Assembly: GCA_021735685.1 (NCBI GenBank)
Contig: JAIPGN010000001.1
Location: 202,678-266,677, forward strand
Direction: 5' to 3'
Source of the DNA: Patescibacteria group bacterium
GTDB lineage: Bacteria; Patescibacteriota; Patescibacteriia; UBA2591; UBA6264
Length of the DNA stretch: 64,000 nt
Part shown: piece by piece, positions 3,961 to 47,893 of the stretch
How positions within the stretch are numbered: the first letter of the stretch is position 1
How the letters are laid out: every line of letters begins with the position of its first letter
Notes under the pieces: generated by a model
What the model was told of the DNA's origin: nothing
Seen by the model: only the letters and a program-made list of their open reading frames with translations
The model's database searches: none
Translations under genes and position numbers: made by a program

Positions 3961-4037
3961 ATGTACGAGGTTCGACCTCGTACATTTGCCCCTAAAACGT
4001 CTCAACCATGCTATGTACGAGGTTCGACCTCGTACAT
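3961..4037 (-). repeat. Paired-palindrome repeat element, family P1 (two 25-bp perfect palindromes ATGTACGAGGT-CGA-ACCTCGTACAT separated by a 27-bp spacer), inverted copy
   Basis: Palindromes occupy 3961-3985 and 4013-4037. The loop reads TTCGA, the reverse complement of the TCGAA loop in the copies at 47115 and 47808. The spacer is the reverse complement of the spacer in those copies. Confidence 0.75.
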
Positions 4038-4060
4038 GGATAGTAGATAAAATAAAAAAA

Positions 4061-4093
4061 TTGCGGAGAAATTATTCTTCGCAATTTTTCTTT
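4061..4093. terminator. Stem-loop plus T-run between convergent recA and the wzz-like gene (candidate intrinsic terminator)
   Basis: TTGCGGAGAA-atta-TTCTTCGCAA hairpin (one mismatch) followed by TTTTTCTTT. It lies in a convergent intergenic region. Confidence 0.45.
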
Positions 4094-4112
4094 ATTCTAT
4101 TGTTTTTTGATA

Positions 4113-5126
4113 CTAATAATTAGTTTTTTTAACTTTCAGTTTTTCGATCGGGTCTTCCTTAAAATATTCTGCCCCAAAAGCATAAAGAATTCCTAAAAAT
4201 ATTCCCAGAATGCCAGCAATGATAACATTTTGCTTTCGGTTTGGAGAAATTCTGGTTTCAGGAGCTGTGGCTGGAACTTCAACTTCTGTGGGTTTGGTTT
4301 GATAAACCCTCTCGTATTTTTTAGATTGAATTTGTTGTTCTAGGTTAACTAGTTTATGTTCCAAATTCAGTAGTTGAGATTCTTTGCTTTCTTTTTGGTT
4401 TTTGACTGTGGCTAAAAGATCAATATAGCTTTCGGCAATGCGGCCTTGGCCATCGCTGTAAGCGGCCGAACGGTTATTAATTTCTCTTTGATAATTTTCA
4501 ATATCGCTTTCTAGGCGAGTAATTTCTTCGTTAGTTTTAGTAATATTTTTTTCTGTTTTTTCTTTTTCGCTTACAATGGTAGCTAACTCGGTTTCGTAAT
4601 TTTTTTCTGCTTCACTAAAGATATTGTTGTGATAGGTAAGGAGAATGTCTGAGACTGCTTGCACCACGGTTACTGCTTGTTCTGGAGTATGAGCCCTTCC
4701 TTGAATTTCAATAAATTTAGAAAACTTGTCTTGGTTTTCGCCATTTTCATTTTCTTTGATGTCAAACATTTGAGCTACTTGATTAGTGGTGGCTCCTTCT
4801 GATAATGCTAAAGGTTCCTTAATTTTGTTTTTAACTTGTTGGAGAACGGTTTCTCGAGAAAAAACAGAGTTGATAGTATTAAGGCTTTGAATGGGATCTC
4901 CTTTAATTTTTCCGACTTCAATTAAGTTGCTAGCCTGAAAAACAGGAGTTATTAGAAGACTGATGATAATACTAAAGATTACAATCCCTCCAAAAATACT
5001 GGCAATTTGCCATTTTCTCTTGCAAAGGACTTTAATATAATCTCGTAAGTCAATTTCATCTTCTTCTGAATAATGATGTTCTTCTAAGATTTTTTCTTCT
5101 TGGCTTTGATATTCGTTGTTTTCCAT
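4113..5126 (-). CDS. Polysaccharide co-polymerase / chain-length determinant (Wzz-like)
   Basis: N-terminal Wzz-type motif (IDLRDYIKVLCKRKWQI followed by a TM), a long coiled-coil periplasmic region and a C-terminal TM (IIAGILGIFLGILYAFGAEYF). Confidence 0.55.
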   Translation of the reverse strand: MENNEYQSQEEKILEEHHYSEEDEIDLRDYIKVLCKRKWQIASIFGGIVIFSIIISLLITPVFQASNLIEVGKIKGDPIQSLNTINSVFSRETVLQQVKNKIKEPLALSEGATTNQVAQMFDIKENENGENQDKFSKFIEIQGRAHTPEQAVTVVQAVSDILLTYHNNIFSEAEKNYETELATIVSEKEKTEKNITKTNEEITRLESDIENYQREINNRSAAYSDGQGRIAESYIDLLATVKNQKESKESQLLNLEHKLVNLEQQIQSKKYERVYQTKPTEVEVPATAPETRISPNRKQNVIIAGILGIFLGILYAFGAEYFKEDPIEKLKVKKTNY

Positions 5127-5149
5127 ATTATTTGTGTTTTAAATTTTAT

Positions 5150-5482
5150 TTAAAAATTGCGACGGGCGGCAAAATTAAATGCATAAAAATATTTTTGCCA
5201 CAATTGGTCGGAAGATTCAAATTGATTATTAAATTGGAAGTAATCTATTAAGGCCTCCCGCAATCGAGTTAATTCTTTTAATCGTTTTTTATTTTTAAAA
5301 TCTTGAATGGTAAGACTTAAGAGCTCTAGCCCACGCACAAAGGCTTTTTCGCTATAATCATTCTTATTTTTATTTTTCCAGTTAATCGTTCTTTCTATTT
5401 CACTGCCAACATTAGCCATTTGTTCTATGAAAGGAATTTTTTCCCAGCGGCCGGAAGCTAAACTTTGGTGTTGTGGCTTCAT
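5150..5482 (-). CDS. Hypothetical helical protein (possibly HEPN or four-helix-bundle-like)
   Basis: Real ORF of 110 aa. Its ATG overlaps (ATGA) the stop of a frameshifted upstream reading frame. No diagnostic motif was recognised. Confidence 0.35.
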   Translation of the reverse strand: MKPQHQSLASGRWEKIPFIEQMANVGSEIERTINWKNKNKNDYSEKAFVRGLELLSLTIQDFKNKKRLKELTRLREALIDYFQFNNQFESSDQLWQKYFYAFNFAARRNF

Positions 5483-5757
5483 TTTTCAATAATATTATTT
5501 ACTATTTCAATAATTGATTTTTGAATTTGAGAATCATTTACTCCTCGGCTTCTATTTCCCTGAGATGGCCGGAAGTTAATCATAGAGTCAAATTCAATCA
5601 TTTTCTGGCCTTGGTCATATGGATAGATATTTATTCCCCAAAGATTGTTTTGCTTTGACCCATTTTCTGCAATTCTTGAATTGATATTTTGTCTTTAATA
5701 ATTTTCATAAATTGATTTTGATTTCTTGATTTAATTTAACAAAAAAAGAGACTTTTG

Positions 5758-6465
5758 TCAATTTACGATTTGCCCATAAATTAAACCAAGATACTCGTGA
5801 ATAGCTAAATCTACGTTTCTTAAATTTTGAGCGCAAGGAAAAAAATCTAGGAGATCATATTTTTCTTTTTGAACTTTAAAATCAGCTGGAACTGGAAAAG
5901 GGGATAGACCTTGTTGGTGAAAAAGGAAAACCGAACGAGGGAGATGATAGGCAGAAGTGATTAAATAAAAGCATTGATCTTTTAGTATTTCTTTCAAATT
6001 TTGTGCACTTTCTCCAGTAGTGCGTGATTTATTTTCTAAAATTATTTTATCAGGATCAAGGCCTTGACTGATTAGATGATTTTTTAATTTCAAGGCTTGG
6101 GTATCTTCGGGGTTTAAAAAGTATTGACCACTAACGATTATTTTTGTTTCTGGCTTAAGGTTAGCTATTCTTGTCGCTTCTGTGGCCCGCAGGCGGTCGC
6201 TTTCCGCTCCGCCCAGTAAAATTACAGCTTGAGTTATTTCTTTGGGCAGAGGCCCTTCTAGGGCCGAGAATTGATTTTCTAGGGGGGCGATAATAGTATC
6301 TGGAAAGGGAGTAATACTAAAGAGATAATAGATAATTAATCCTAAAATTAAAAGTCTAGTTCCTCTTTTTTTCTTTTTTAAAAGCAATAAAAACCCGAGA
6401 AGGGTAATTAAAAGGATAAAAACACTGGGTGTTAAAAATTGTTGAATAACTTTAAACCAAATCAT
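5758..6465 (-). CDS. DUF218 (YdcF/ElyC/SanA family) membrane-anchored protein
   Basis: N-terminal TM, then ILLGGAE...IVSGQ and a TSAYHLPRS motif that matches the DUF218 TSxYHMPR signature. Confidence 0.7.
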   Translation of the reverse strand: MIWFKVIQQFLTPSVFILLITLLGFLLLLKKKKRGTRLLILGLIIYYLFSITPFPDTIIAPLENQFSALEGPLPKEITQAVILLGGAESDRLRATEATRIANLKPETKIIVSGQYFLNPEDTQALKLKNHLISQGLDPDKIILENKSRTTGESAQNLKEILKDQCFYLITSAYHLPRSVFLFHQQGLSPFPVPADFKVQKEKYDLLDFFPCAQNLRNVDLAIHEYLGLIYGQIVN

Positions 6466-7064: not shown

Positions 7065-7066
7065 TT

Positions 7067-7657: not shown

Positions 7658-7667
7658 TTCGATTTTA

Positions 7668-8207: not shown

Positions 8208-10105
8208 TTTATTTCTAACAGTCCCTTTATTTTTTCTTTATTCATCTCTGATAAAGCTTGTTCAAATTCTTTTAAGATTATTTGAATATCGTCTCCATTT
8301 TTTTCTAAATGAGAGATAAATATTTTTTCATGCTTGGTTGGCGATTCTTTTTCAGTAATAATTTCTTCAAACAATTTTTCCCCCGGCCGAATGCCAGCAA
8401 AAACAATGGGAATGTCAATATCCGGCTTATAACCAGCCAAACGAATCATTTCTTTAGCTAAATCTAATATTTTTACTGGTTGACCCATATCCAGCACAAA
8501 AACCTCTCCATCTTGGCCAATGGCTCCAGCCTGCATAATCAAAAGACAAGCTTCAGCAGTAATCATAAAATATCTTTTCATTTCGGGGTCAGTCACTTCT
8601 ACGGGGCCTCCTTTTTCAATTTGTCTTTGGAAAATAGGGACGACACTGCCTTGACTGCCCAAAACATTACCAAATCTAACTGCGCAAAAACGAGTTGGAA
8701 TTTTTTGTGAGCGGGCTTTTTGATTAAGCCAAACGCAAACTTTTTCCGCCATTCTTTTGCTAGCCCCCATAATAGAAGTTGGATTAATAGCTTTATCTGT
8801 CGAGACCATAACAAATTTTTTGACTTTATGTTTCAAGGAAGCCTCTCCTGTATTAAGAGTTCCTAAAATATTGTTGCGCACGGCTTCATCAGGGTCGTCT
8901 TCCATCATCGGCACGTGCTTGTAGGCGGCCGCATGAAAAACTACATCTGGTTGGCATTTTTGAAAAAGGTGGTCAATTTTGTTCTGGTCACAGATATCAG
9001 CTAAAGCAAAGAATAAAGGATTTTCTGGAAAATTAGAATTTTTCCAAGCTTGATTAAGTTTCTTTTTTAGATAAAAAAGAGCGGTTTCTCTTTGATCTAA
9101 AGCAATTAATTGCCGGGGTTTAAATTTTAATATTTGTTCGCAAAGCACCGAGCCAATAGAGCCGGCTGCACCGGTCACTAAAATTCTTTTGTCGGTAACA
9201 TATTCTTTAATGGCTTGAGTATCTATTTGGACTGGCTCACGTCCCAATAAATCTTCAATAGATATCTCCCGTAGATTATTTAAACTGACTTTTTCTTCTA
9301 GAATTTCTTTAGTGCCGGGTAAGATTTTGATTTTCTTAATTTTAGCTTGCCGGGCTAATTCCACAGTCTTTCTAATGGTTGGGATAGGGGCAGAGGGCAT
9401 GGCAATAATTATTTCCGCAATTTCTCTTTGTTCAATGATTTCAGCTAATTGTTCAATAGTTCCTAAAACTTTAATTCCATGAATTAAAATTCCTTTTTTC
9501 ATCGGACTGTCATCAATAAAGCCTTCTAAAGAGTAGGGGGTCTGAGAATTAGCAATTAAATGCCGAGCTAATTTTTCTCCGGCTTCGCCGGCGCCAATAA
9601 TTAAAACTTTGTTTTTTTTGCCTTTTTCTTTTTTCCAGCTGTTTTTTAATCCGTGTAAATATATTCTTTTGGCAAAGCGCAAGCTGGCTGTAAAAAAGAA
9701 AGCCAAGGCTCCAGAAATAAAGACAATAGAACGGGGGAATCCTTTAAAAAGTTCATTTTCTTTTAAAACAAAAAGAATTGCTCCCAAAGAAGCAAATCCT
9801 AAAATTACAGCTCGTCCAACTTTCAAAATTTCGCGAATGCTAATAAAAGACCAAGAAATAGAATAAAGTCTTTCCAAAACAAAAAAGATAATAGTCAGAG
9901 GGACAGCCAAAGCAATGAATCCCTTAATCATTGTAAAGTATTCAGGCTTAATGTTTCCATCAAAACGAAGCAAAAATCCCAAAAAACAAGCTAAAGCAAT
10001 TAAAAGCACATCAAAGAACAGAAAGAAAGCCGTTCTTTTTAAGCTTGTTTTGTGAAATATCTTTTTTCTTGCTCCGTAGAATAATTTTGAATTATTTATT
10101 CTCAT
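8204..10105 (-). CDS. Membrane-anchored NDP-sugar 4,6-dehydratase/epimerase (CapD/PglF/WbpM family)
   Basis: Four N-terminal TM segments, two Rossmann sites (LIIGAGEAGEKLA and LVTGAAGSIGSVL) and a C-terminal polysaccharide-biosynthesis CapD-like domain. Confidence 0.85.
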   Translation of the reverse strand: MRINNSKLFYGARKKIFHKTSLKRTAFFLFFDVLLIALACFLGFLLRFDGNIKPEYFTMIKGFIALAVPLTIIFFVLERLYSISWSFISIREILKVGRAVILGFASLGAILFVLKENELFKGFPRSIVFISGALAFFFTASLRFAKRIYLHGLKNSWKKEKGKKNKVLIIGAGEAGEKLARHLIANSQTPYSLEGFIDDSPMKKGILIHGIKVLGTIEQLAEIIEQREIAEIIIAMPSAPIPTIRKTVELARQAKIKKIKILPGTKEILEEKVSLNNLREISIEDLLGREPVQIDTQAIKEYVTDKRILVTGAAGSIGSVLCEQILKFKPRQLIALDQRETALFYLKKKLNQAWKNSNFPENPLFFALADICDQNKIDHLFQKCQPDVVFHAAAYKHVPMMEDDPDEAVRNNILGTLNTGEASLKHKVKKFVMVSTDKAINPTSIMGASKRMAEKVCVWLNQKARSQKIPTRFCAVRFGNVLGSQGSVVPIFQRQIEKGGPVEVTDPEMKRYFMITAEACLLIMQAGAIGQDGEVFVLDMGQPVKILDLAKEMIRLAGYKPDIDIPIVFAGIRPGEKLFEEIITEKESPTKHEKIFISHLEKNGDDIQIILKEFEQALSEMNKEKIKGLLEIK

Positions 10106-10367
10106 AATAAAAATATTCTTTAAGTCGGCGTTTTAACAATCTTTGACCTTGGCTTGTTTTTAAATATTTTTCTCTACGTATAGCATCGTTTTTATTTAAG
10201 CAAGCTTCATAATGTATCAATTCCCATGGCCGGTATGGCTTGGTGGATTTAACTAATCCTTTATTGTGTTTTTCTAATCGTTCTTTTAAATTCGTAGTAT
10301 AACCAATATAGAGTTGGTTGTTATTTTTGCTTTGGATAACATAATTATAGAAAAACATAATTTTCAA
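10092..10367 (-). CDS. GIY-YIG nuclease domain protein
   Basis: YNYVIQS...LYIGYTTNLKERLEKHN...PWELIHYE is the canonical GIY-YIG motif, in a 91-aa protein. Confidence 0.8.
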   Translation of the reverse strand: MKIMFFYNYVIQSKNNNQLYIGYTTNLKERLEKHNKGLVKSTKPYRPWELIHYEACLNKNDAIRREKYLKTSQGQRLLKRRLKEYFYYENK

Positions 10368-24709: not shown

Positions 24710-24742
24710 AATTAATTTTTAAGGTAATTTTTATAAAATTTT

Positions 24743-24857
24743 ATTGCTTTTGAGTTATCCCCAGTTCAGGGGTTGTTAATTTTTTAGGATGTGATATATT
24801 TATTCATGGAGCGACTGTATTTCTTCGGAATTACTTTCGCTCCATTTTTATTTCTCC
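24743..24857 (+). repeat. Direct repeat DR-left (~110 bp; contains CCCC-agttca-GGGG and GGAGCGA...TCGCTCC hairpins with T-runs)
   Basis: About 98% identical to 25908-26023. It bracket-flanks the MNT plus partner gene pair. Confidence 0.8.
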
Positions 24858-25294
24858 AGTTTGGGGGTCGCACCTCCAAACTTTTTGTTTTTAAATTTTA
24901 ATTTTGGTTGTTTGACTAGCATTTTTTCCGCTTTTTTAAATATTTGCTTGACCCAGAGAATGTATTCTTGGTTTTGTTTTTGAGAGATAGTAGCGCCTCC
25001 CCCATAAAGCTCCCAATTTCTTTTGGATCGCATTTCGTTAGCTAAAATTTCTATTTCTGGATCTTGGAGAAAAATAGAAAGTTTTTTTATTAGTTCTATG
25101 TGATGGCCCCTTTTTGATTTCACCCTTAAGTCCTTGATGGCACAAATAGCGATAGCTAATTTTAGGAGAGCGTCATAAGAAAAACGGAAAGAAACTTCCG
25201 GGACATTGGAAGAAAAGGCTATTCTAAAATCTTTTTTAGCAGATTCATAGTAACGGTTTATTTGTTTTTCTGAAAATTTGAACTTTTCAAACAT
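24848..25294 (-). CDS. Hypothetical helical protein, putative partner (HEPN-like?) of the adjacent MNT nucleotidyltransferase
   Basis: Start abuts the stop of the MNT gene. No canonical Rx4-6H HEPN motif was seen. The C-terminal 9 aa are encoded by a palindromic repeat. Confidence 0.35.
   Translation of the reverse strand: MFEKFKFSEKQINRYYESAKKDFRIAFSSNVPEVSFRFSYDALLKLAIAICAIKDLRVKSKRGHHIELIKKLSIFLQDPEIEILANEMRSKRNWELYGGGATISQKQNQEYILWVKQIFKKAEKMLVKQPKLKFKNKKFGGATPKLEK
24858..24883. repeat. P2-like palindrome AGTTTGGGGG-tcgca-CCTCCAAACT
   Basis: Close relative of the AAGTTTGGAGG-n5-CCTCCAAACTT palindromes at 61387, 61664 and 61979. It lies in-frame at the 3' end of the 24848..25294 ORF, encoding KFGGATPKL. 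Confidence 0.6.
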
Positions 25295-25840
25295 TTAAAT
25301 AATTTTTATTATTTTTTGAGAAAAAACATTTTTAATAAAATCGTCCTTTTTTTCTTTTCTTTTTTTAAATTCTGCTGGCGAGAAATCAACAATATTTATT
25401 TCTCGGCCAATGTCTTTTTCTAGGGGTAGAACTATTCTTTTGGTAGCCAAAGAAGAGTGGTCGCCGATTAGAAGTAAATCAATGTCACTTTCCGCTTGCA
25501 AGTTATTTTTAGCGTAAGAGCCAAAAATATAGGCCTCTTTTAATTTTTTAATTTTTTGCAATTTATTTTTAAGATTTTCAACAACTCCGTAATTAGAATT
25601 ATAAATTCGTTTCAACTCTTCTAGAAGGGGATAGTCTTGGTTAAGAGAATAGTATTTTTGGTTACCGCGTTTTTCAGAAATTAAAATTTTTTCTTTTTCT
25701 AGTTCTTTTAATTTTCGAAAAAGATTCCCGACATCTAGATTTAATTTTTTGGCTAATTCATTAATATATTTTTCTTTTTGCGGGTTAAGAAAAAAATATC
25801 CTAAAATTTTTTTTGTAATGATTGAACGAAGTTTAAGCAT
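25295..25840 (-). CDS. Winged-HTH plus minimal nucleotidyltransferase (MNT) domain protein
   Basis: YIFGSYAKNNLQAESDIDLLLIG matches the GSxAxG...SDIDL MNT motif. An N-terminal wHTH precedes it. Confidence 0.7.
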   Translation of the reverse strand: MLKLRSIITKKILGYFFLNPQKEKYINELAKKLNLDVGNLFRKLKELEKEKILISEKRGNQKYYSLNQDYPLLEELKRIYNSNYGVVENLKNKLQKIKKLKEAYIFGSYAKNNLQAESDIDLLLIGDHSSLATKRIVLPLEKDIGREINIVDFSPAEFKKRKEKKDDFIKNVFSQKIIKII

Positions 25841-25880: not shown

Positions 25881-25907
25881 AACTTAACAATAAATTGTCA
25901 ATTATTA

Positions 25908-26023
25908 ATTGCTTTTAAGTTATCCCCAGTTCAGGGGTTGTTAATTTTTTAGGATGTGATATATTTATTCATGGAGCGACTGTATTTCTTCGGAATTACT
26001 TTCGCTCCATTTTTTATTTTTTA
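25908..26023 (+). repeat. Direct repeat DR-right (copy of 24743-24857)
   Basis: Near-identical to DR-left, with a one-base difference at the 5' end (A vs G) and an extra T in the T-run. Confidence 0.8.
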
Positions 26024-30717: not shown

Positions 30718-30730
30718 CTGAAAACGTTTA

Positions 30731-30751
30731 CTTGGGAGCCGAGCTTCTAAG
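30731..30751. repeat. Hairpin CTTGGGAGC-cga-GCTTCTAAG (P3 family copy 1)
   Basis: Related to CTTAGGAGC-cga-GCTCCTAAG at 30985-31005. G-U pairs would keep the stem intact in RNA. Confidence 0.5.
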
Positions 30752-30809
30752 TAAATAGTTGTCCACAGGGGAGGGGTTGCTAAAAAATAAAATTTTATTA
30801 AAATAAACT

Positions 30810-30886
30810 ATGGTGCTTGTCACGAACTTCGGTTCTTTGGTTTTCGTAAGGTTCGCCTTTCGTTTACCAAGCAAGCACCATTTTTT
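30810..30886 (+). ncRNA. GGTGCTTG-stem structured element with two internal UUCG-tetraloop hairpins and a T-run (complex terminator or small RNA), copy A
   Basis: ATGGTGCTTG...CAAGCACCAT 10-bp closing stem encloses GAAC-TTCG-GTTC and GTAAGG-TTCG-CCTTTCG, then TTTTTT. It is about 75% identical to the copy at 62983-63059, whose closing-stem bases differ. Confidence 0.4.
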
Positions 30887-30984
30887 ATTTCCGAAAATGG
30901 AATTGTAAGTCGAAAAAATGACGAGAAAAAAGATTTAGCTTGTTAAGCTGCTCAAAACATTTCTGGGCGGCTTCTTTATATCTA

Positions 30985-31005
30985 CTTAGGAGCCGAGCTC
31001 CTAAG
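30985..31005. repeat. Hairpin CTTAGGAGC-cga-GCTCCTAAG (P3 family copy 2)
   Basis: Perfect 9-bp palindrome with a CGA loop in the 390-bp ORF-free region 30718-31106. Confidence 0.5.
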
Positions 31006-31106
31006 AGCTGCCTAGGTCCGACCTCGACAGGAAAGTAAATAAAAAAAAGACGCAAAGAGTAAAATCAAAGCATCTTTTTTATTGATTTAAGTATTTGAAT
31101 TTGTTT

Positions 31107-35231: not shown

Positions 35232-36803
35232 ATGAAAAAACAAGATCAACGAGCTATGTTGATTATCTTAGATGGTTGGGGCGTGGGTCTAAAAAGTAAA
35301 GGAAACGCGATTGAGATGGCCCAAAAGCCCTTTTTTGATAGCTTAAGAGCCAAGTATTCTTATACAGAAATTTGTGCTCATGGTTTAAAGGTTGGTCTTC
35401 CTCAAGGGCAACCAGGCAATTCAGAAGCTGGTCATTTGAACTTGGGTGCGGGAAGAGTTATCGAAAGTGATGCTGTGCATATTGATAGTTTGATTAAGGA
35501 CGGAAGATTTTTCAAAAACCCTGCTTTTTTAGAAGGAATTAGCCATTATCAAAAAAATAAATCGCAAGTGCATTTAATGGGTTTAGTTACTGAAGAAAAC
35601 AGCGCTCATTCTTCGCCAGGTCATTGGTTGGCGATGCTTAATTTTTTAAAAGAAAAAAAGGTGCCAAAGGTTTTTTTGCATCTTTTTACTGATGGTCGTG
35701 ATTCTTCGCAACACGCGGCTATTAGGATTTTAGAAAGATTTGAGGCTAAAATTAATGGCAATGGCTCTCCTTTGAAAGTGGAAATTGTTAGCATTGTGGG
35801 GCGTTTTTATGCCATGGATCGAGTTCAAGAATGGAGTAACATTGAGAAAGCGTATCAGCTTCTTACGGAAGGAGAGGGCTTCCAAGCCAGTAGTGCGGCT
35901 GAAGCGATTGTTAGCGCTTATAACCGGAAAGAAACCGATGAGTTTGTTAGTCCGACGGCAATTGTTGATAAAAAAGGAAAACCTCAGGGTTTGATTAAAG
36001 ACAAGGATTTGGTTTTCTTTATGAATTTACGTTCTGATCGAGCCAGAGAGTTAAGTAAAGTTTTTGTTCAGAAAGATTTTGAAAAGAAAAATTCCAAGGC
36101 TTTTTCACGAAAAAAGTTTTTAGAAAATTTGTTTTTTGTAGCTTTAACTGATTTTGGGCCAGATTTAGGTCGAATTCGAACTGCTTTCCCGAGCCCAAAA
36201 GTTGAAGAAACTTTGCCTTTTTGTCTGTCTTCTCGCCAGCAATTATATGTAGCCGAAAGTGAAAAATATGCCCATATTACTTTTTTCTTTAACGGAGGAT
36301 ATGATCATGTGGTTGCTGGAGAAAAAAGAATAATTGTTCCTTCGCCAGCAGTTGAGTCTTATGACCTTCAGCCAGAAATGAGCGCCGAGAAATTAAGTGC
36401 CAAAGTTATTCAAGAAATCAATGCCAATCAACCTGGTTTTGTGGCCCTTAATTTCGCTAATCCAGACATGGTTGGGCATACTGGTAATTTGATTGCCGCG
36501 ACCAAAGCTGTTGAATGCGTTGATCGCAATTTAAAGAAAGTAGTAGCTTGCGCTCAGAAAAATAAATACTCTGTAATTATTACTGCTGATCATGGAAATG
36601 CTGAAGAGATGATTGATTTAAGGACTGGGGAAATACGTACTACCCACACTATTAATCCCGTTCCTTTTATTTTATTTGGTCCAGATCTTAAGTCGGTTCA
36701 ATTAAAGAAAGACGGTTCTTTGTCTGATGTGGCGCCGACAATTTTAGAAATTTTAAATGAATCAAAGCCGCCAATAATGAAAGGGCGAAGCTTAATTAAG
36801 TAA
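35232..36803 (+). CDS. gpmI: 2,3-bisphosphoglycerate-independent phosphoglycerate mutase, copy 1
   Basis: LIILDGWG, GNSEAGHLNLGAGR (catalytic Ser) and the ITADHGN metal site. Confidence 0.9.
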   Translation: MKKQDQRAMLIILDGWGVGLKSKGNAIEMAQKPFFDSLRAKYSYTEICAHGLKVGLPQGQPGNSEAGHLNLGAGRVIESDAVHIDSLIKDGRFFKNPAFLEGISHYQKNKSQVHLMGLVTEENSAHSSPGHWLAMLNFLKEKKVPKVFLHLFTDGRDSSQHAAIRILERFEAKINGNGSPLKVEIVSIVGRFYAMDRVQEWSNIEKAYQLLTEGEGFQASSAAEAIVSAYNRKETDEFVSPTAIVDKKGKPQGLIKDKDLVFFMNLRSDRARELSKVFVQKDFEKKNSKAFSRKKFLENLFFVALTDFGPDLGRIRTAFPSPKVEETLPFCLSSRQQLYVAESEKYAHITFFFNGGYDHVVAGEKRIIVPSPAVESYDLQPEMSAEKLSAKVIQEINANQPGFVALNFANPDMVGHTGNLIAATKAVECVDRNLKKVVACAQKNKYSVIITADHGNAEEMIDLRTGEIRTTHTINPVPFILFGPDLKSVQLKKDGSLSDVAPTILEILNESKPPIMKGRSLIK

Positions 36804-36811: not shown

Positions 36812-38383
36812 ATGTCTAATCAGATTCAGCCGGTACTTTTAATTATTCTTGATGGCTTTGGAGTTGCCTCTGTTGGGAACGGCAATGCGGTTACTTCTGC
36901 TAATTTGCCGTCTTTGGAGGGATTGGTTAATAATTATCCCACTACCACTCTTCAAGCTTCTGGCGAATCTGTTGGCCTATCTTGGGGCGAGCCAGGCAAT
37001 TCAGAGGTGGGTCATTTGAATATGGGAGGCGGTCGTATTATTTGGCAAAGTTTACCTCGTATCACTCAGGCCATTAGTGATAATAGTTTTTTTAAAAATA
37101 AAGCTTTCTTGAAAGCAGTCGAGCATGCTCAAAAAAATAATTCGGCTTTACATTTAGCTGGTTTAGTCTCTAGCGGGGGAGTGCATTCTTCTTTTGGTCA
37201 CTTGCACGCTCTTTTGGAATTAGCTGCTCAACAGGGTTTAGAAAAAGTTTATTTACATATTTTTCTAGATGGACGTGACTCTCCGCGAGATAGTGGCCAA
37301 GGTTTTGTAGAGGATCTAATTTCCAAGATGAGGAAATTAGGAGTTGGTCAAATTGCAACTTTGTCAGGACGTTTTTACGCTATGGATCGGGATAATAATT
37401 GGGACAGAATTGAAAGGGCTTATTTGGCTATGACTAAGGGTTTAGCGGAAGAAGAATTTGAAGATCCTTTAGTTGCGATTGAATCTTCTTATCAAAAAGG
37501 AATTTATGATGAGGAATTTGTGCCCGTAGTGATTAAAGAAAAAGATCAAGAGCCAATAGCAGTACAAGATAATGATGCTTTAATTTTCTTTAATTTTCGT
37601 CCAGATCGAGCTCGACAAATCACGGAAGCTTTTACCAAAAAAGAATTTGATGGTTTTCCGCGCGAGAAATTGAATAACTTTCTAATGGTTACTTTGACTG
37701 AATACGAGCAAGGATTGCCAGTAGAAATTGCTTTCCCAGTTGAAGACATTAAAAATCCTTTAGCCGAGACGATTAGTTCGGCTGGACATGGTCAATTTCA
37801 TATTGCCGAAACTGAAAAATATGCCCACGTTACTTTTTTCTTTAATGGCCGACGAGAAAAGAATTTCCCGCAAGAGGAAAGAATTCTAATCCCTTCTCCG
37901 CAGGTCAGTTCTTATGATCAAAAGCCAGAAATGTCTGCTCCTCAGGTTACTCATCAAGTTTTATGGGCCTTAGGAGATAAGAAATATAAGTTTATAGTAG
38001 TTAATTTTGCTAATCCAGATATGGTGGGTCATACGGGTAATTTAGGGGCAGTGATTAAATCTTTGGAAACTTTAGATGGTTTGGTGGGCAAAATTGTTGA
38101 TTTGGCCTTGAAGCAAAATTGGGTTAGTATCATTACTGCTGATCACGGCAATTGTGAAAAGATGATTAATTTAAGAAGCGGAGAGATTAATAAAGAGCAC
38201 ACTAATAATCCGGTTCCTTTTTTGGTCATTAAAAAAGGAGTAGAGGATCGGGGATTTTCTGGAGGTTTAAAAAATTTAAGCGCCTTAACTCCTAGTGGAG
38301 TTTTGGCTGATGTTGCTCCGACGATTTTAAAGATTATGAATTTGCCTCAGCCCCCAGAAATGCAAGGAATTTCTTTGGTTTAA
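36812..38383 (+). CDS. gpmI: 2,3-bisphosphoglycerate-independent phosphoglycerate mutase, copy 2 (divergent tandem paralog)
   Basis: LIILDGFG, GNSEVGHLNMGGGR and ITADHGN. Same 523-aa length as copy 1, with roughly 40-45% identity estimated by eye. Confidence 0.9.
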   Translation: MSNQIQPVLLIILDGFGVASVGNGNAVTSANLPSLEGLVNNYPTTTLQASGESVGLSWGEPGNSEVGHLNMGGGRIIWQSLPRITQAISDNSFFKNKAFLKAVEHAQKNNSALHLAGLVSSGGVHSSFGHLHALLELAAQQGLEKVYLHIFLDGRDSPRDSGQGFVEDLISKMRKLGVGQIATLSGRFYAMDRDNNWDRIERAYLAMTKGLAEEEFEDPLVAIESSYQKGIYDEEFVPVVIKEKDQEPIAVQDNDALIFFNFRPDRARQITEAFTKKEFDGFPREKLNNFLMVTLTEYEQGLPVEIAFPVEDIKNPLAETISSAGHGQFHIAETEKYAHVTFFFNGRREKNFPQEERILIPSPQVSSYDQKPEMSAPQVTHQVLWALGDKKYKFIVVNFANPDMVGHTGNLGAVIKSLETLDGLVGKIVDLALKQNWVSIITADHGNCEKMINLRSGEINKEHTNNPVPFLVIKKGVEDRGFSGGLKNLSALTPSGVLADVAPTILKIMNLPQPPEMQGISLV

Positions 38384-43468: not shown

Positions 43469-43498
43469 TTTTAATTAATAAAGTTTTCTATTAGCCTT

Positions 43499-44374: not shown

Positions 44375-44387
44375 TAATTTATATTTT

Positions 44388-45479: not shown

Positions 45480-45483
45480 TTTT

Positions 45484-47046
45484 ATGATGGCCAGATTTTC
45501 TAAATTAAAAGGAACAATTACTGGCGGAGCAATGATCATTGCTCTTTTTTCTGTTTTTAGCCGAATTTTAGGTCTTCTCCGAGATAGGTTATTGAGCAGT
45601 AGTTTTGGTGCCGGTCGGGTTTTAGATGCTTATTATGCATCTTTTCGTTTACCCGACTTAATTTTTAATACCCTTATTTTAGGGGCGCTTTCTTCGGCTT
45701 TCATCCCCATCTTTTTAAAATATTGGCAAAAAGATAAAGAAGAGGCCTGGCGAATAACTAATTCGGTTTTAAATATTTTATTACTTATTGTTTTGGGTTT
45801 GGCCACTTTAGCTTTTTTTCTAGCACCGACCTTGATTAGATATTTAGTGCCAGGTTTTGATTTAGAAACTCAGACTTTGACTGTTTCTTTAACTCGGATT
45901 ATGCTGATTGGCATTTTGTTTTTTACTTGCAGCAACATTGCCAGCAGTGTCTTGAATTCTTTTCGTCGTTTTTTAGTTTATAGTTTAGCGCCTTTAATGT
46001 ATAATCTGGGCATTATCTTCGGCATTATGGTTTTAGTGCCTCACACTTCTTTAGGTTTAAAGGGTTTAGCTTGGGGAGTTACTCTAGGAGCAGCTGGACA
46101 TTTTTTGATCCAATTGCCAGCTTTACTAAAAACTGGTTATCGCTGGCAACCGATCATTTCTTCTCATCAAGCTATTAAGAAGATAGTTAAATTAATGCTA
46201 CCTCGTTGTTTCGGCCTAGCAGTGAGTCAATTAAATTTCGTGGTTACCACTTTAGTGGCTTCTACTTTGACGGTGGGAGCGGTAGCAATTTACAGCTTGG
46301 CTTTCAATCTTTTTAATGTCCCTATTGGCATTTTTGGCATTTCTTTAGCTATTGCTATTTTTCCGGTTTTAAGTGGAAGCTTTGCCCAAGGGGATCAAAA
46401 AACCTTTGTTTCTCAAATGTCTAAAACCGTGCAAAGAATTATTTATTTAATTGTTCCGATTACTATTCTTTATTTAAGTTTAAGGGCTCAGATTGTTCGT
46501 TTAATTTTAGGGGCCGGGGTGTTTTCTTGGCGGGATACAGTTTTAACCGCTACTACCTTAGGATTTTTCTCTCTTTCTCTTTTAGCGCAAAGTTTAATTC
46601 CTTTATTTTCCCGTGCCTTTTATTCTTTACATGATACTTTGACCCCAGTTAAAATAGCAGTAGTTAGTTTTGGAGTTAATATTGTTGGCTGTTTTCTTTT
46701 GGGTCGTTGGATTGGAGTAGGGGGATTAGCTTTAGCTTTTTCTTTGGCTTCTTTTATAAATCTAATCTTACTGTATTACTTTTTTCATAAAAAAGCATTA
46801 CCCTTGCCAAACAAAAAGATAAGAATAACATTTTTGCGAGCCTTTGGGCTTTCTGCGATAATGTTAGTAATTGTTCAGCTAAGTAAAGGCTTATTTGGTT
46901 CTTTGGTTAATATGCAAACTTTTGTTGGGGTTTTGATTCAGACTGTTGTTTCAGGTTCAATTGGTCTTTTGTTTTACTTTGTGGCTAGCCTATTTTTGCA
47001 TTTTCCAGAAGTAGACATAATTAAACAATTTTTTAAAAGAAAATAA
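45484..47046 (+). CDS. murJ: Lipid II flippase MurJ (MviN)
   Basis: N-terminal FSRILGLLRDRLLSSSFGAG...DAYYASFRLPDL is characteristic of MurJ. 14 TM segments. Confidence 0.85.
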   Translation: MMARFSKLKGTITGGAMIIALFSVFSRILGLLRDRLLSSSFGAGRVLDAYYASFRLPDLIFNTLILGALSSAFIPIFLKYWQKDKEEAWRITNSVLNILLLIVLGLATLAFFLAPTLIRYLVPGFDLETQTLTVSLTRIMLIGILFFTCSNIASSVLNSFRRFLVYSLAPLMYNLGIIFGIMVLVPHTSLGLKGLAWGVTLGAAGHFLIQLPALLKTGYRWQPIISSHQAIKKIVKLMLPRCFGLAVSQLNFVVTTLVASTLTVGAVAIYSLAFNLFNVPIGIFGISLAIAIFPVLSGSFAQGDQKTFVSQMSKTVQRIIYLIVPITILYLSLRAQIVRLILGAGVFSWRDTVLTATTLGFFSLSLLAQSLIPLFSRAFYSLHDTLTPVKIAVVSFGVNIVGCFLLGRWIGVGGLALAFSLASFINLILLYYFFHKKALPLPNKKIRITFLRAFGLSAIMLVIVQLSKGLFGSLVNMQTFVGVLIQTVVSGSIGLLFYFVASLFLHFPEVDIIKQFFKRK

Positions 47047-47052
47047 GCAAAA

Positions 47053-47199
47053 AATTTCCAGAAAAAATTTGTTCAGCTTCTGCCTAGATCAAACCTAGGT
47101 AAATAATTCCCAAAATGTACGAGGTCGAACCTCGTACGTCGCATGGTTAAGCTGTTCTAGGGGCAAATGTACGAGGTCGAACCTCGTACATGTTTTTTT
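47053..47199 (+). repeat. P1 paired-palindrome element, extended copy B (leader AATTTCCAGAAAAAATTTGT..., then two 25-bp palindromes, then T8)
   Basis: Palindromes at 47115-47139 (one mismatch) and 47167-47191, followed by TTTTTTTT. It lies immediately after the murJ stop. Confidence 0.7.
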
Positions 47200-47268
47200 T
47201 GAATATTGACAAGTTGGCTATTTTTTGCTATTCTCGTAATATCTTTAAAAAATGCAAGGAGGTGCGCC

Positions 47269-47673
47269 ATGCTTTTATTTGCAGACGCAATTCTAGTTAT
47301 TTTTTTGCTTGGTTTAAGTAGAAAAATAACTTCACAGATTCAGATAGCGGAGTCTTTCCGCCGTTGTCGTTGCCAAAAAGAAGAGAATGAGGAAGAAGAG
47401 TCAGCGGAAAATCTATTTTTCTTAATTTTCAGTTGGCTTCTCTTTATTTCTTCTGCGATTTTCCTCCTTTTCTTCCCTAAAGATTTTTCATGGAGGGAAA
47501 CCGCTGTTTTGGTAGCTGCGTTCCAGTTTATTTTGAGTCTTTGTGGAATGTTTTTCCTGGGGCACAAGAAAGCGTTCCATGTAATTCTTAGCGAATATGG
47601 CTTTAAAGCTGTGTTCGCAGCCACGATCATTACTGGGGTTTTTGTTGCTTTTTTGTTAGCTATTTTTTCTTAA
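47269..47673 (+). CDS. Small polytopic membrane protein, hypothetical (134 aa, about 4 TM segments)
   Basis: AGGAGG RBS at 47254-47260, 6 nt before ATG 47269. Bracketed by P1 copies B and C. The TTG start at 47206 in the ORF track is rejected. Confidence 0.45.
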   Translation: MLLFADAILVIFLLGLSRKITSQIQIAESFRRCRCQKEENEEEESAENLFFLIFSWLLFISSAIFLLFFPKDFSWRETAVLVAAFQFILSLCGMFFLGHKKAFHVILSEYGFKAVFAATIITGVFVAFLLAIFS

Positions 47674-47691
47674 TAAAAAAGCATCAAGTAA

Positions 47692-47736
47692 GGGGTCTTT
47701 TTGAACGAAATTTCAAGAAGACCCTCCTTTTTTTTA
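47692..47736 (+). terminator. Intrinsic terminator (GGGTCTT ... AAGACCC stem followed by T8)
   Basis: AGGGGTCTTT-loop-AAGACCCTCC followed by TTTTTTTT directly after the small membrane-protein gene. Confidence 0.5.
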
Positions 47737-47754
47737 TTTAGAAATAAGTAAAAG

Positions 47755-47893
47755 AATTTCTAGAAAAAATTTGTCTAGACTTGTCTAAGCTGGGCTTATC
47801 CAAACAAATGTACGAGGTCGAACCTCGTACATCGCATGGTTAAGCTGTTCTAGAGGCAAATGTACGAGGTCGAACCTCGTACATATTTTTTTT
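47755..47893 (+). repeat. P1 paired-palindrome element, extended copy C
   Basis: Leader AATTTCTAGAAAAAATTTGT..., perfect palindromes at 47808-47832 and 47860-47884, then T9. The 78-bp core is about 97% identical to copy B. Confidence 0.7.

What the first reader, a model, noticed from the sequence alone, without database searches (positions are those of the whole stretch)
3961..47893. P1 element (two 25-bp perfect palindromes in a 77-bp unit) present three times; two copies bracket a small membrane-protein gene
The palindrome ATGTACGAGGT-CGA-ACCTCGTACAT occurs as a pair separated by a conserved 27-bp spacer at 3961-4037 (inverted), 47115-47191 and 47808-47884. The 47 kb copies share a further ~60-bp leader (AATTTCYAGAAAAAATTTGT...) and end in T8-T9. 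As direct repeats ~690 bp apart they enclose only a 134-aa four-TM protein gene (47269-47673), which has its own strong AGGAGG RBS and terminator. This looks like a MITE or cassette-like structure, or a duplicated bidirectional terminator module. The inverted copy after recA shows the element is mobile or recombinogenic in both orientations.
Basis: seen in the sequence. Interest (0 to 1): 0.65.

Follow-up and report, generated by a model that had tools for sequence, protein, structure and literature searches.

The report
REP-like palindromic terminator repeats in Patescibacteria
The repeated 77-base "P1" unit is real and behaves like the REP/REPIN palindromic repeats of better-known bacteria, sitting at gene ends where it probably also stops transcription. 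The small membrane gene it brackets is an old resident gene, not a cargo cassette.

Summary
The hairpin ATGTACGAGGT-CGA-ACCTCGTACAT (11-bp stem, 3-nt centre) occurs six times as three 77-nt doublets at the stated coordinates; none is expected by chance. Each doublet ends in a T7-T8 run on the strand of the upstream gene.

The cassette reading fails. murJ - small gene - lepA is syntenic in two related genomes. Their orthologous intergenic sites hold other hairpin families (P2 AAGTTTGGAGG..CCTCCAAACTT; P3 CTTAGGAGC..GCTCCTAAG) or only one P1 doublet. Copy A is a recent ~165-nt copy of the copy B module that deleted murJ's C-terminal tail.

The same 25-mer occurs as single hairpins at 24 other sites in Paceibacterota-like contigs. 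Most are next to T/A runs; three lie in frame inside genes such as RNase HII.

The window encodes a syntenic IS200-like Y1 transposase (61475-62185). Its best structural match is the E. coli REP-associated transposase. P2 hairpins lie upstream of this gene and twice in frame inside it. Across about 100 homologues the two in-gene segments co-vary.

Best reading: P1 is a REP/REPIN-like repeat co-opted as an intrinsic terminator. Mobilisation of P1 by this transposase is inferred, not shown. It lacks the canonical GT[AG]G tag, so I rate it a new variant of a known kind, of moderate interest.

The parts
47115..47191 (+). P1 doublet, copy A: hairpin 47115-47139 (one substitution), 27-nt spacer 47140-47166, hairpin 47167-47191
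   Evidence: RNA fold -38.7 kcal/mol, z=-5.8
47193..47200 (+). T8 run after copy A. With hairpin 47167-47191 it forms a terminator-like site for the secD-secF-GT-murJ transcript
47028..47080 (+). Leader A: about 50 nt homologous to leader B. It starts inside the 3' end of murJ and supplies the murJ stop codon (47044-47046)
   Evidence: the window's MurJ lacks the 27-29-aa tail of its relatives
47808..47884 (+). P1 doublet, copy B: hairpins 47808-47832 and 47860-47884, spacer 47833-47859. It is the ancestral copy, also present in the 92% relative L034/L035
47886..47893 (+). T8 run after copy B
47729..47782 (+). Leader B, directly after the small gene's own terminator
3961..4037 (-). P1 doublet, copy C: hairpins 4013-4037 and 3961-3985 on the - strand. 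It lies downstream of the Wzz-like gene and its own terminator (4056-4089). Its T7 tail (3953-3959) overlaps the recA stop codon
   Evidence: The orthologous site in L053 has a single P1
47269..47673 (+). Small 134-aa four-segment membrane protein gene, bracketed by copies A and B. It has its own promoter-like site (47206-47234) and terminator-like hairpin (47692-47725). It is a resident syntenic gene, not part of the element
61475..62185 (+). RAYT-like IS200-family Y1 (HUH) transposase gene. It is the candidate mobilising enzyme for the hairpin families
   Evidence: Pfam Y1_Tnp 31.3 bits; HUH and Tyr invariant; Foldseek top hit 4er8_A; syntenic in relative
61384..61416 (.). P2 hairpin AAAAAGTTTGGAGGCTGAACCTCCAAACTTTTT, just upstream of the RAYT-like gene
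61663..61691 (.). P2 hairpin in frame inside the RAYT-like gene (site 1, encodes EKFGGSASKL)
61977..62007 (.). P2 hairpin in frame inside the RAYT-like gene (site 2, encodes EKFGGSASKL)
24858..24885 (.). Degenerate P2-like hairpin AGTTTGGGGGTCGCACCTCCAAACT followed by a T-run
30985..31005 (.). P3 hairpin CTTAGGAGCCGAGCTCCTAAG. A degenerate P1-like hairpin lies beside it (about 31009-31025), and a degenerate P3 lies at 30726-30748

Best explanation
P1 is one of at least three families of short GC-rich palindromic repeats (P1, P2, P3) that populate the few intergenic gaps of this compact Patescibacteria genome. They behave like the REP elements of Proteobacteria, and the 77-nt P1 doublet behaves like a REPIN.

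Shown:
- The doublet (hairpin, 27-nt spacer, hairpin, T-run) has been copied as a unit to at least three sites.
- The hairpins stay almost identical while the spacer drifts.
- Orthologous sites in relatives hold different hairpin families, single hairpins or hairpins with flipped loops.
- The same 25-mer is found at about 24 unrelated sites in other Paceibacterota-like contigs, sometimes in frame inside genes.
- The window encodes a single, syntenic IS200/RAYT-like HUH-Y1 transposase. This gene, like the three homologues whose DNA was read, carries one hairpin sequence upstream and twice in frame inside the coding sequence. In the fourth homologue read (L047) the two in-gene hairpins belong to different families.

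Inferred:
- A RAYT-type enzyme recognises the hairpin in single-stranded DNA and disseminates or homogenises it. Short-homology recombination also moves larger blocks.
- Copy A arose this way. About 165 nt (T-tail, leader, doublet, T8) were copied from downstream of the small gene into the 3' end of murJ, replacing murJ's C-terminal tail and the previous terminator hairpin.
- In RNA the second hairpin (-14.9 kcal/mol) plus T7-T8 acts as an intrinsic terminator for the upstream gene. The host therefore keeps 'a hairpin plus T-run' at these positions while the identity of the hairpin turns over.
- The bracketing of the small membrane gene is incidental. The gene simply has a hairpin landing site on each side.
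For: - Copies and chance expectation.
- Unit conservation, hairpins against spacer: (0/50 vs 6/27 differences, p=0.001).
- Terminator consensus on the strand of the upstream gene at all three copies. Hairpin energies.
- Synteny of murJ - small gene - lepA in relatives.
- Different hairpins at orthologous sites. Upstream of the small gene, L033 has P3+T6; L036 has P2 plus a remnant ACCTCGTAGG+T7. Downstream, L034 has leader plus P1 doublet; L036 has a P3 doublet.
- Wzz-recA site: a single P1 in L053, a P2-like hairpin in L056.
- Assemblies of close relatives break inside the doublet (L034, L035, L052).
- The MurJ tail is missing only in the window, and the leader A/B homology is significant.
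- P1 elsewhere: 4 genome loci and 27 metagenome loci, 24 unique sites, 17 of them beside T/A runs. P1 lies in frame in RNase HII as a 9-aa insertion relative to PDB 7uwe, and in a Mur-ligase-like ORF and a third ORF.
- Flipped loop at the same site, L004 vs L007.
- RAYT-like gene: Pfam Y1_Tnp above cutoff; HUH and Tyr invariant in 23 homologues; AlphaFold model pLDDT 75.8; Foldseek top hit 4er8_A, the REP-associated tyrosine transposase bound to REP (E 5.8e-4); syntenic DUF5663 - RAYT - methyltransferase arrangement in the relative.
- One hairpin sequence upstream and at two in-gene sites in the window, L049, L059 and L060; in L047, P3 upstream and at site 1, degenerate P2 at site 2.
- Within-protein co-variation of the two segments: 4.65 vs 3.22+-0.08, 0 of 1000 shuffles.
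- Homologues whose in-gene segments would encode the P1 core GAGGTCGAACCTC (P0025/L049, read at DNA level; 'RGSTS' peptides in P0210, P0219, P0238, P0254).
Against: - No RAYT gene flanked by, or containing, the exact P1 hairpin was found. The RAYT-like gene in the window is associated with P2, so the P1-enzyme link is indirect.
- P1 has GTAC, not the GT[AG]G guide tetranucleotide of canonical REPs.
- By their asymmetric loops the two hairpins of the doublet are direct, not inverted as in REPINs.
- Copy number is modest: 6 hairpins in 64 kb here, but only 3 in about 0.8 Mb of MAG JBAYJV01.
- The homology between copies A and B extends beyond the doublet. That points to recombination, not precise transposition, for at least that event.
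- Termination and transposition were not, and cannot be, tested here.
- The RAYT-like protein scores below the NCBIfam REP_Tyr_transpos cutoff (25.9 vs 80 bits). Its Tyr motif is Y-x-N-L-N, not the Y---NP of class 2 TnpA_REP (PMC6006769).
Confidence: 0.65

Rival explanations
1. P1 doublets are ordinary intrinsic terminators. They became similar only through local duplication and gene conversion, and no transposase or mobile-element biology is involved.
For: The second hairpin plus T-run fits the terminator consensus at all three copies. The A/B homology extends into flanking sequence, as expected for recombination. Most single P1 sites elsewhere lie beside T/A runs.
Against: The identical 25-mer recurs at about 24 unrelated sites in contigs of 32-46% GC. 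Three of these lie in frame inside genes, where a terminator makes no sense. The first hairpin of each doublet has no T-run. Copies B and C sit behind a gene that already has its own terminator. Hairpins of the same class are built into and around RAYT-like genes.
Confidence: 0.2
2. The two direct P1 copies and the small membrane gene form a mobile cassette or composite MITE that inserted between murJ and lepA.
For: Two direct repeats 693 nt apart enclose one small gene.
Against: The gene lies between murJ and lepA in relatives with 92% and 54% identical products. Its promoter and ribosome-binding site are conserved there. It is flanked in those genomes by P3/P2 hairpins or by only one P1 doublet. 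No target-site duplication is present. No integrase or other transposase lies nearby.
Confidence: 0.02
3. Leader plus hairpin-spacer-hairpin plus T-run is a small RNA gene or a CRISPR/TIGR-like mini-array that is transcribed and processed.
For: The layout resembles repeat-spacer-repeat with a terminator. The fold is strong (z about -6 to -7). Part of leader B can pair with the spacer in the minimum-energy fold.
Against: No promoter-like site lies in the leaders. The spacer is the same in all copies. Copy C has no leader. No cas, tas or Nop-domain gene is present in the window. There is no Rfam family match. No box C/D motifs of the kind described for TIGR stem-loop arrays are present (PMC12045711). 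One leader-spacer pair is broken in the 92% relative (sequence read).
Confidence: 0.03
4. P1 is a recognition signal for a conserved host protein, such as a DNA-uptake sequence or a nucleoid or termination factor site. That would explain its exact conservation across genomes.
For: The exact 21-25-mer is conserved across contigs of different GC content. Paired uptake sequences act as terminators in Neisseria (from my own knowledge).
Against: P1 half-sites never occur outside hairpins in the window. Density is far below that of uptake sequences (3 in about 0.8 Mb in JBAYJV01). Orthologous sites swap P1 for P2 or P3 freely.
Confidence: 0.05

Closest known systems
REP elements and REPIN doublets with their RAYT transposases (E. 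coli, Pseudomonas; Bertels & Rainey 2011 PMC3116915; Bertels et al. 2017 PMC5581495; Quentin et al. 2018 PMC6006769; structure 4ER8, PMC3479197)
   Same: - Short (about 25 nt) extragenic palindromes forming stable hairpins.
- They occur as singlets and as doublets with a conserved spacer that can fold into one long hairpin.
- Several families occur per genome, with turnover at orthologous intergenic sites.
- The genome has a single-copy, syntenic Y1 HUH transposase gene flanked by the repeat.
- In-frame copies lie inside the transposase gene and inside unrelated genes, as already reported for TnpA_REP subclass 2.4 (PMC6006769).
   Different: - P1 has a self-complementary GTAC at the stem foot, not a 5' GT[AG]G tag.
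- The stems are perfect, without bulges.
- The two hairpins of the doublet are direct by loop orientation.
- A T-run travels with the doublet.
- The exact hairpin is shared by contigs of quite different GC content, whereas REPs are usually species-specific.
- The associated enzyme family has Y-x-N-L-N, not Y---NP.
- Its two in-gene hairpins sit at fixed positions outside the HUH-Tyr interval in essentially all homologues examined.
- The host phylum (Patescibacteria/CPR) has no described REP system in the literature searched.
Rho-independent (intrinsic) terminators
   Same: An 11-bp stem with 5 G-C pairs and a 3-nt loop is followed within 1 nt by T7-T8, on the strand of the upstream gene.
   Different: The sequence is repeated identically at many sites. 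It comes with a second hairpin that has no T-run. Two copies lie behind genes that already have a terminator.
Rickettsia palindromic elements (RPE) and other palindromic repeats inserted in frame in genes (my own knowledge; REP insertions in genes are mentioned in PMC6006769)
   Same: P1 is found in frame, always read as MYEV[ER]PRT, inside an RNase HII gene, a Mur-ligase-like gene and a third ORF in metagenome contigs.
   Different: P1 is much shorter (25-27 nt, against about 100-150 nt for RPE). In this window it is strictly intergenic.
Neisseria intergenic mosaics (dRS3/NIME, Correia elements) and enterobacterial BIMEs (my own knowledge)
   Same: Intergenic mosaics are built from short inverted repeats and conserved linkers. 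They are sites of rearrangement, and some act as terminators.
   Different: There is no sequence relationship. No IHF-type linker or phage integration was identified here.

Membership tests
REP (repetitive extragenic palindrome) | Short (20-40 nt) palindrome forming a stable hairpin | tested here: met
   25 nt, 11-bp stem. RNA -14.9 and ssDNA -10.4 kcal/mol; 0 of 200 shuffles fold as well.
REP (repetitive extragenic palindrome) | Many copies, over-represented in extragenic space | tested here: inconclusive
   There are 6 hairpins in 64 kb, all intergenic, with 0 expected. Only 3 occur in about 0.8 Mb of MAG JBAYJV01. The full source genome could not be scanned.
REP (repetitive extragenic palindrome) | Conserved 5' GT[AG]G guide tetranucleotide at the foot of the hairpin (PMC6006769) | tested here: not met
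   P1 has GTAC at both feet (ATGTAC...GTACAT). A variant in L002/L030 has CTAC...GTAG inside the stem.
REP (repetitive extragenic palindrome) | The same repeat flanks a RAYT gene in the genome | tested here: not met
   The only RAYT-like gene in the window (61475-62185) is flanked and invaded by P2, not P1. tblastn found no RAYT near any fetched P1 locus. Homologues with the P1 core exist (L049; 'RGSTS' peptides), but none has the exact P1. This feature is met for P2.
REPIN (REP doublet) | Two REPs in inverted orientation separated by a short spacer, able to form one long hairpin | tested here: inconclusive
   The long-hairpin fold is the minimum-energy structure for RNA and ssDNA. The asymmetric centres (CGA/CGA) show that the two hairpins are direct repeats. 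The P3 doublet in L036 does have inverted loops.
REPIN (REP doublet) | The doublet, not the singlet, is the replicated unit (spacer conserved among copies) | tested here: met
   Three doublets have spacers 78-96% identical to each other. The copy B spacer differs at 2 of 27 positions (93% identical) from its orthologue in the 92% relative.
RAYT / TnpA_REP (for the gene at 61475-62185) | IS200-like Y1 HUH fold with HUH and catalytic Tyr | tested here: met
   Pfam PF01797, 31.3 bits against a cutoff of 23. H97, H99 and Y157 are invariant. The Foldseek top hit is 4er8_A, followed by IS608 and ISDra2 TnpA.
RAYT / TnpA_REP (for the gene at 61475-62185) | Single-copy, vertically inherited (syntenic) gene, unlike multi-copy IS200 (PMC5581495) | tested here: met
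   There is one copy in the window. The DUF5663 - RAYT - methyltransferase context is the same in the relative genome.
RAYT / TnpA_REP (for the gene at 61475-62185) | Curated family threshold and class 2 Tyr motif Y---NP | tested here: not met
   NCBIfam REP_Tyr_transpos scores 25.9 bits against a cutoff of 80. The motif is Y[IV]NLN[HYD]. A profile search against PDB sequences finds nothing.
Intrinsic terminator | G+C-rich hairpin followed directly by a T-run on the transcribed strand | tested here: met
   The consensus scan finds the second hairpin of A, B and C with its T7-T8 run.
Intrinsic terminator | Actual termination of RNA polymerase | not testable with these tools
   This needs Term-seq or in vitro transcription.
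MITE | Terminal inverted repeats plus target-site duplication | tested here: not met
   The ends are inverted repeats only because each hairpin is a palindrome. The flanks (cccaaa|..|gtttt, aaacaa|..|atttt, ctatcc|..|atttt) show no duplication.
Integron cassette / attC | Promoterless ORF with an attC site, near an integron integrase | tested here: not met
   The small gene has its own conserved promoter-like site and ribosome-binding site. It is syntenic in relatives. No integrase is present in the window.
CRISPR or TIGR array | Repeats separating variable spacers, with cas or tas genes (box C/D motifs for TIGR) | tested here: not met
   The spacer is the same in all copies. No cas or tas genes are present. 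No Rfam match. TIGR features were taken from PMC12045711.

The most novel reading that the evidence does not exclude
Patescibacteria may carry a large, vertically inherited RAYT-like family (855 50%-identity clusters at E<=1e-30) whose recognition hairpin is built in frame into its own gene. It sits at two fixed positions either side of the HUH-Tyr core and again upstream. These hairpins co-evolve as a set with the hairpin families that serve as terminators across these tiny genomes. If so, this would be a domesticated transposase that installs, homogenises and replaces terminator hairpins (P1, P2, P3), with its own gene acting as master copy or autoregulatory target. The exact conservation of P1 across divergent genomes would then reflect enzyme specificity, not shared ancestry.
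Probability: 0.25. Interest if true: 0.7.

Novelty: new variant of a known kind. Interest (0 to 1): 0.5.

Why it matters
REP/REPIN-RAYT systems have been studied almost only in Proteobacteria. In the literature I could search, no paper describes them in the Candidate Phyla Radiation.

The repeats here show three things at once in a roughly 1-Mb-class genome with very little intergenic DNA. They occupy terminator positions. They turn over between families at fixed sites. And they are tied to a very large family of syntenic Y1 transposases that carry their own hairpin inside the coding sequence.

If confirmed, this would be a clear case of selfish palindromes being used as everyday gene-boundary signals. 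It would also explain recurrent assembly breaks in CPR metagenome bins.

For annotation, the result means two things:
- The small membrane gene should not be called a mobile cassette.
- The shortened MurJ is a by-product of repeat-mediated recombination.

Tried and rejected
- **Rfam.** The gathering scan of the whole window found only two tRNAs. The permissive scan of 46.9-48.1 kb found only sub-threshold microRNA-like hits, caused by the long hairpin.
- **Exact look-up of the small protein.** It is not on record in the contig index, so the rest of the 268-kb source contig could not be read.
- **Viral contigs.** No P1 match.
- **Literal sequence search in papers.** Only an irrelevant hit.
- **TIGR-Tas stem-loop arrays.** Considered because they occur in CPR. 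Rejected: the spacer is conserved between copies and there are no box C/D motifs and no Tas gene.
- **DNA-uptake-sequence idea.** Rejected because half-sites never occur alone.
- **tRNA T-arm mimicry.** The GAGGTTCGACCTC core resembles a T-arm, but the loop is too short. Not pursued.
- **Leader-spacer base pairing.** The fold of copy B suggests it, but copy C has no leader and one pair is broken in the 92% relative. Not supported.
- **Search for a RAYT homologue carrying the exact P1 (V-RG[RS]TS-Y in the enzyme's frame).** I checked 120 + 150 homologues. Only core-sharing variants turned up.
- **Profile search against PDB sequences.** It failed. Only the fold comparison linked the protein to 4ER8.
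- **L058 (P0047).** No perfect in-gene hairpin passed my strict filter. Not followed up.

Full report
**1. The observation**

Reading the three sites and searching the pattern confirms the finding. The sequence ATGTACGAGGT-CGA-ACCTCGTACAT has an 11-bp stem and a 3-nt centre. It occurs six times, as three hairpin / 27-nt spacer / hairpin units:
- 47115-47191 (+), copy A
- 47808-47884 (+), copy B
- 3961-4037 (-), copy C

No match is expected in shuffled sequence. Some details need correcting.
- The 25-mers are not perfect palindromes, because the centre CGA is asymmetric. It shows that both hairpins of each unit point the same way.
- The first hairpin of copy A has one substitution.
- The spacers differ at 1-6 of 27 positions, while the hairpins differ at 0-1 of 50 (B vs C, Fisher p=0.001).
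- The A/B 'leader' is a significant homology of about 50 nt (score 30 vs 9.9+-2.0 in shuffles). About 35 unrelated bases follow it. Copy C has no leader.
- Each unit is followed within one base by T8, T8 or T7 on its own strand.

The neighbouring genes are recA, a Wzz-like gene, murJ, a 134-aa membrane ORF with four hydrophobic segments, and lepA.

**2. Where the window comes from**

The window is AT-rich (33.8% GC) and tightly packed. The small protein and the Wzz-like protein are 100% identical to NCBI proteins of a 'Patescibacteria group bacterium' (locus tags K9K85_01290 and K9K85_01090, contig of 268,542 bp). Pfam annotation of the ORFs shows housekeeping and polysaccharide-synthesis genes. 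No cas, tas, integrase or other transposase gene is present, apart from the one described in section 6.

**3. The cassette idea fails**

The small gene has only three relatives among 5.8 billion clustered proteins. Two related genomes carry it in the same place, in the order secD-secF-glycosyltransferase-murJ-small gene-lepA. Their products are 92% identical (L032-L035) and 54% identical (L036-L045, from a 658-kb contig). The promoter-like site, 5' leader and ribosome-binding site of the small gene are among the best-conserved bases of the region.

What differs between genomes is the hairpin module in each flanking gap.
- *Upstream gap:* the 92% relative has GGCTTAAGAGCTGAGCTCCTAAGCC+T6 (family 'P3'). 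The 54% relative has AAAGTTTGGAGGCCTCCAAACTTT (family 'P2'), followed by what looks like the 3' half of a P1-type hairpin (ACCTCGTAGG) and T7.
- *Downstream gap:* the 92% relative has the same leader plus P1 doublet as the window, and its contigs end inside the second hairpin. The 54% relative has a P3 doublet with inverted loops.

Copy B is therefore ancestral to the window and the 92% relative. Copy A is specific to the window lineage.

MurJ in the window lacks the 27-29-residue basic, proline-rich tail that both relatives have, although the rest is 84-86% identical. The break falls exactly where leader A begins. The simplest history is that about 165 nt (terminator T-tail, leader, doublet, T8) were copied from downstream of the small gene into the 3' end of murJ. 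This replaced the tail and the older terminator hairpin. That step is an inference.

**4. The third site**

At the convergent Wzz-recA junction, the 658-kb relative keeps the same Wzz terminator hairpin. A single, slightly degenerate P1 (TATGCACGAGGTCGAACCTCGTACATA) follows at the same position, and then about 125 nt of unrelated sequence. A third relative (81% identical Wzz) has a P2-like hairpin there, at a contig end. A Logan contig of the window's own organism breaks inside the doublet. P1 is therefore old at this site. The doublet form replaced a singlet, and hairpin families swap at fixed positions.

**5. P1 elsewhere**

The 21-nt core occurs in 4 stretches of the GTDB species collection. 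Three are in one Candidatus Paceibacterota MAG of about 0.8 Mb. It also occurs in 27 metagenome stretches and in no viral contig. After removing duplicates there are 24 distinct sites, all with single hairpins, in contigs of 32-46% GC. Of these, 17 carry the full 25-mer, 17 have a T-run or A-run against the stem, and 7 have neither.

Three sites lie inside long ORFs, always in the frame MYEV[ER]PRT:
- a Mur-ligase-like ORF;
- an RNase HII, where alignment to E. coli RNase HII (7uwe) shows a 9-residue insertion exactly at the hairpin;
- a third ORF.

Other signs of dynamic behaviour:
- The same site in related contigs can carry the hairpin with its loop flipped (L004 vs L007).
- Several pairs of contigs share the flank on one side of P1 only (L006/L011, L027/L028, L003/L023).
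- Half-sites never occur alone in the window.

**6. Other hairpin families and the transposase**

The window also holds four P2 hairpins (61384-61416, 61663-61691, 61977-62007 and a degenerate one at 24858-24885). It holds P3 at 30985-31005, with degenerate P3-like and P1-like hairpins nearby.

Two of the P2 hairpins lie in frame inside an ORF at 61475-62185, each encoding EKFGGSASKL. The evidence that this ORF is an IS200-like Y1 transposase:
- Pfam PF01797 scores 31.3 bits against a cutoff of 23. The NCBIfam REP_Tyr_transpos score is only 25.9 bits against a cutoff of 80.
- The HUH histidines and a tyrosine are invariant in homologues.
- An AlphaFold model (pLDDT 75.8; the first hairpin-encoded region is disordered) has as its best PDB match 4er8_A, the E. 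coli REP-associated tyrosine transposase bound to a REP hairpin. IS608 and ISDra2 transposases come next.
- The gene is single-copy in the window. It sits in the same DUF5663 - gene - methyltransferase context in the 658-kb relative. RAYTs behave this way; multi-copy IS200 elements do not (PMC5581495).

**7. A family-wide pattern**

The protein has more than 1,300 word-indexed homologues, mostly Patescibacteria. It matches 855 50%-identity clusters at E<=1e-30. In an alignment of 23 homologues, and in segment extraction from 97, each protein has two short variable segments at the same two positions, one before the HUH motif and one after the tyrosine. Within a protein the two segments tend to be the same peptide, and they differ between proteins. 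The mean best 6-mer identity is 4.65 within proteins against 3.22+-0.08 with shuffled partners (0 of 1000 shuffles reach it). In 37 of 97 proteins the match is 6 of 6.

The peptides fit reverse-complement codon pairs (F/K, L/K, G/S, R/P, H/M, N/V, S/A, D/V). This is what an in-frame palindrome predicts.

The DNA of four further loci confirms hairpins at the in-gene sites.
- L049, L059 and L060 each carry one genome-specific hairpin upstream of the gene and at both in-gene sites; L060 has a further copy just after the stop.
- L047 carries P3 upstream and at site 1, and a degenerate P2 at site 2.

The hairpins of L049 share P1's core GAGGTCGAACCTC. Several more distant homologues carry 'RGSTS' segments compatible with CGAGGTTCGACCTCG. 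No homologue with the exact P1 was found.

In-frame REP copies inside tnpA_REP genes, and REP insertions in other genes, have been reported for subclass 2.4 (PMC6006769). The principle is therefore known. The fixed two-site arrangement, the phylum and the motif differences are not described in the literature I could search.

**8. How it probably works**

*Shown.* P1 is a dispersed palindromic repeat. Its hairpins are kept almost identical while the spacers drift. It is exchanged with sister families at orthologous sites. It occurs in both orientations and in genes. It belongs to the class of hairpins tied to a RAYT-like gene family.

*Inferred.*
- A RAYT-type enzyme acts on the hairpin in single-stranded DNA to spread or refresh copies. 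The ssDNA hairpin is -10.4 kcal/mol, and the 77-nt unit can form one long hairpin of -20.3 kcal/mol.
- Recombination between short homologies moves larger blocks, as in the origin of copy A.
- In RNA, the second hairpin (-14.9 kcal/mol) plus T7-T8 terminates the upstream transcript.

All three T-runs are on the strand of the upstream gene (murJ, the small gene, Wzz), and the consensus scan picks them up. Copies B and C lie behind genes that already have a terminator, so there the unit is at most a back-up. recA must read through copy C in antisense before reaching the bidirectional hairpin at 4056-4089.

**9. Rivals**

- *Plain terminators spread only by recombination.* This explains the T-runs and the extended A/B homology. 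It does not explain the in-gene copies, the exact conservation across unrelated contexts, or the link of the hairpin class to RAYT-like genes.
- *Cassette or MITE.* Refuted by synteny and by the lack of target-site duplications.
- *Small RNA or CRISPR/TIGR mini-array.* Unsupported: there is no promoter, the spacer does not vary, no cas or tas genes are present, and there is no Rfam match.
- *Uptake sequence or protein-binding signal.* Unlikely given the low density and the free replacement by P2 and P3.

**10. Verdict**

The mobile, recombinogenic terminator-like reading is partly right, and the cassette reading is wrong.

P1 works like a REP/REPIN element co-opted as an intrinsic terminator. 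It fails two defining tests for canonical REP membership: it has no GT[AG]G tag, and no RAYT flanked by P1 was found. I therefore rate it a new variant of a known kind, of moderate interest (0.5).

The more novel possibility is a CPR-wide domesticated transposase that carries its own hairpin in its coding sequence and manages terminator hairpins genome-wide. The evidence does not exclude it (probability about 0.25).

Noticed in passing
window 61475-62185 (+), with hairpins at 61384-61416, 61663-61691 and 61977-62007: A RAYT-like Y1 transposase gene has a P2 hairpin upstream and two P2 hairpins in frame inside the coding sequence, each encoding EKFGGSASKL. Across about 100 homologues the two in-gene segments co-vary within each protein and fit palindromic codon pairs. 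This pattern holds across a family of 855 50%-identity clusters.
   Followed up: yes
window 24740-24849 and 25905-26014: Two 110-nt direct repeats are 98% identical. Each has an upstream motif GAGTTATCCCCAG..GGGTTGTTAA and ends in a hairpin (GGAGCGAC..TCGCTCC) plus T-run, like a small-RNA gene. They bracket two minus-strand genes (24848-25294, unknown function; 25295-25840, Polbeta-type nucleotidyltransferase). There is no Rfam match.
   Followed up: partly
window 30757-30890 and 62930-63063: Two 134-nt repeats are 78% identical and have the same kind of upstream motif. One contains a perfect DnaA-box-like TTATCCACA at 62932-62940, the other TTGTCCACA at 30759-30767. Each has a long stem GGTGCTT..AAGCACC followed by T6, so they may be a second small-RNA gene family. 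There is no Rfam match.
   Followed up: no
window 46960-47046 (3' end of murJ): MurJ is 520 aa here, against 547-549 aa in two relatives. The basic, proline-rich C-terminal tail is missing, and the break coincides with the start of the leader plus P1 module.
   Followed up: yes
window 47895-48053: About 150 nt upstream of lepA are well conserved with the relative L036. The region includes a strong promoter-like site (TTGACA-17-TAAAAT, 47985-48013). The roughly 90 nt before it have no obvious function and contain a P3 half-site (AGCTCCTAA at 47933-47941).
   Followed up: no
window 47200-47268: The promoter-like site, 5' leader and ribosome-binding site of the small membrane gene are more conserved across three genomes than its coding sequence (54% protein identity in one relative).
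   Followed up: partly
L012:1252-1878; L010:9363-10724 and L015:112-1776; L021:452-1180: The P1 hairpin lies in frame (MYEV[ER]PRT) inside an RNase HII gene, a Mur-ligase-like gene and a third ORF. In RNase HII it is a 9-aa insertion relative to the E. coli structure 7uwe.
   Followed up: partly
L004:7182-7206 vs L007:304-328; also L006/L011, L027/L028, L003/L023: The same genomic site in related contigs carries P1 with its central loop flipped (TCGAA vs TTCGA). Several contig pairs share the flank on only one side of P1, so P1 marks synteny breakpoints.
   Followed up: partly
L002:1165-1260 and L030:684-760: A cluster of different hairpins of the same design lies side by side: GTACGAGGTCGAACCTCGTAC, CCTACGAGGTGAAACCTCGTAGG and TGCAGGTCGGACCTGCA. 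A P2-like hairpin lies elsewhere on the contig (L030 about 2804-2833). This is a BIME-like mosaic.
   Followed up: no
L047:9846-9900: A tandem repeat (GTGAATCA)n of about 7-8 units lies between two P3 hairpins, upstream of the RAYT-like gene of the relative genome.
   Followed up: no
window 35232-36803 and 36812-38383: Two adjacent paralogous genes for cofactor-independent phosphoglycerate mutase (523 aa each) have repeat blocks that are 70-86% identical at the DNA level.
   Followed up: no
window 10092-10367 (-): A small GIY-YIG domain ORF (annotated in the identical Logan contig L052) is embedded in the polysaccharide-synthesis operon.
   Followed up: no
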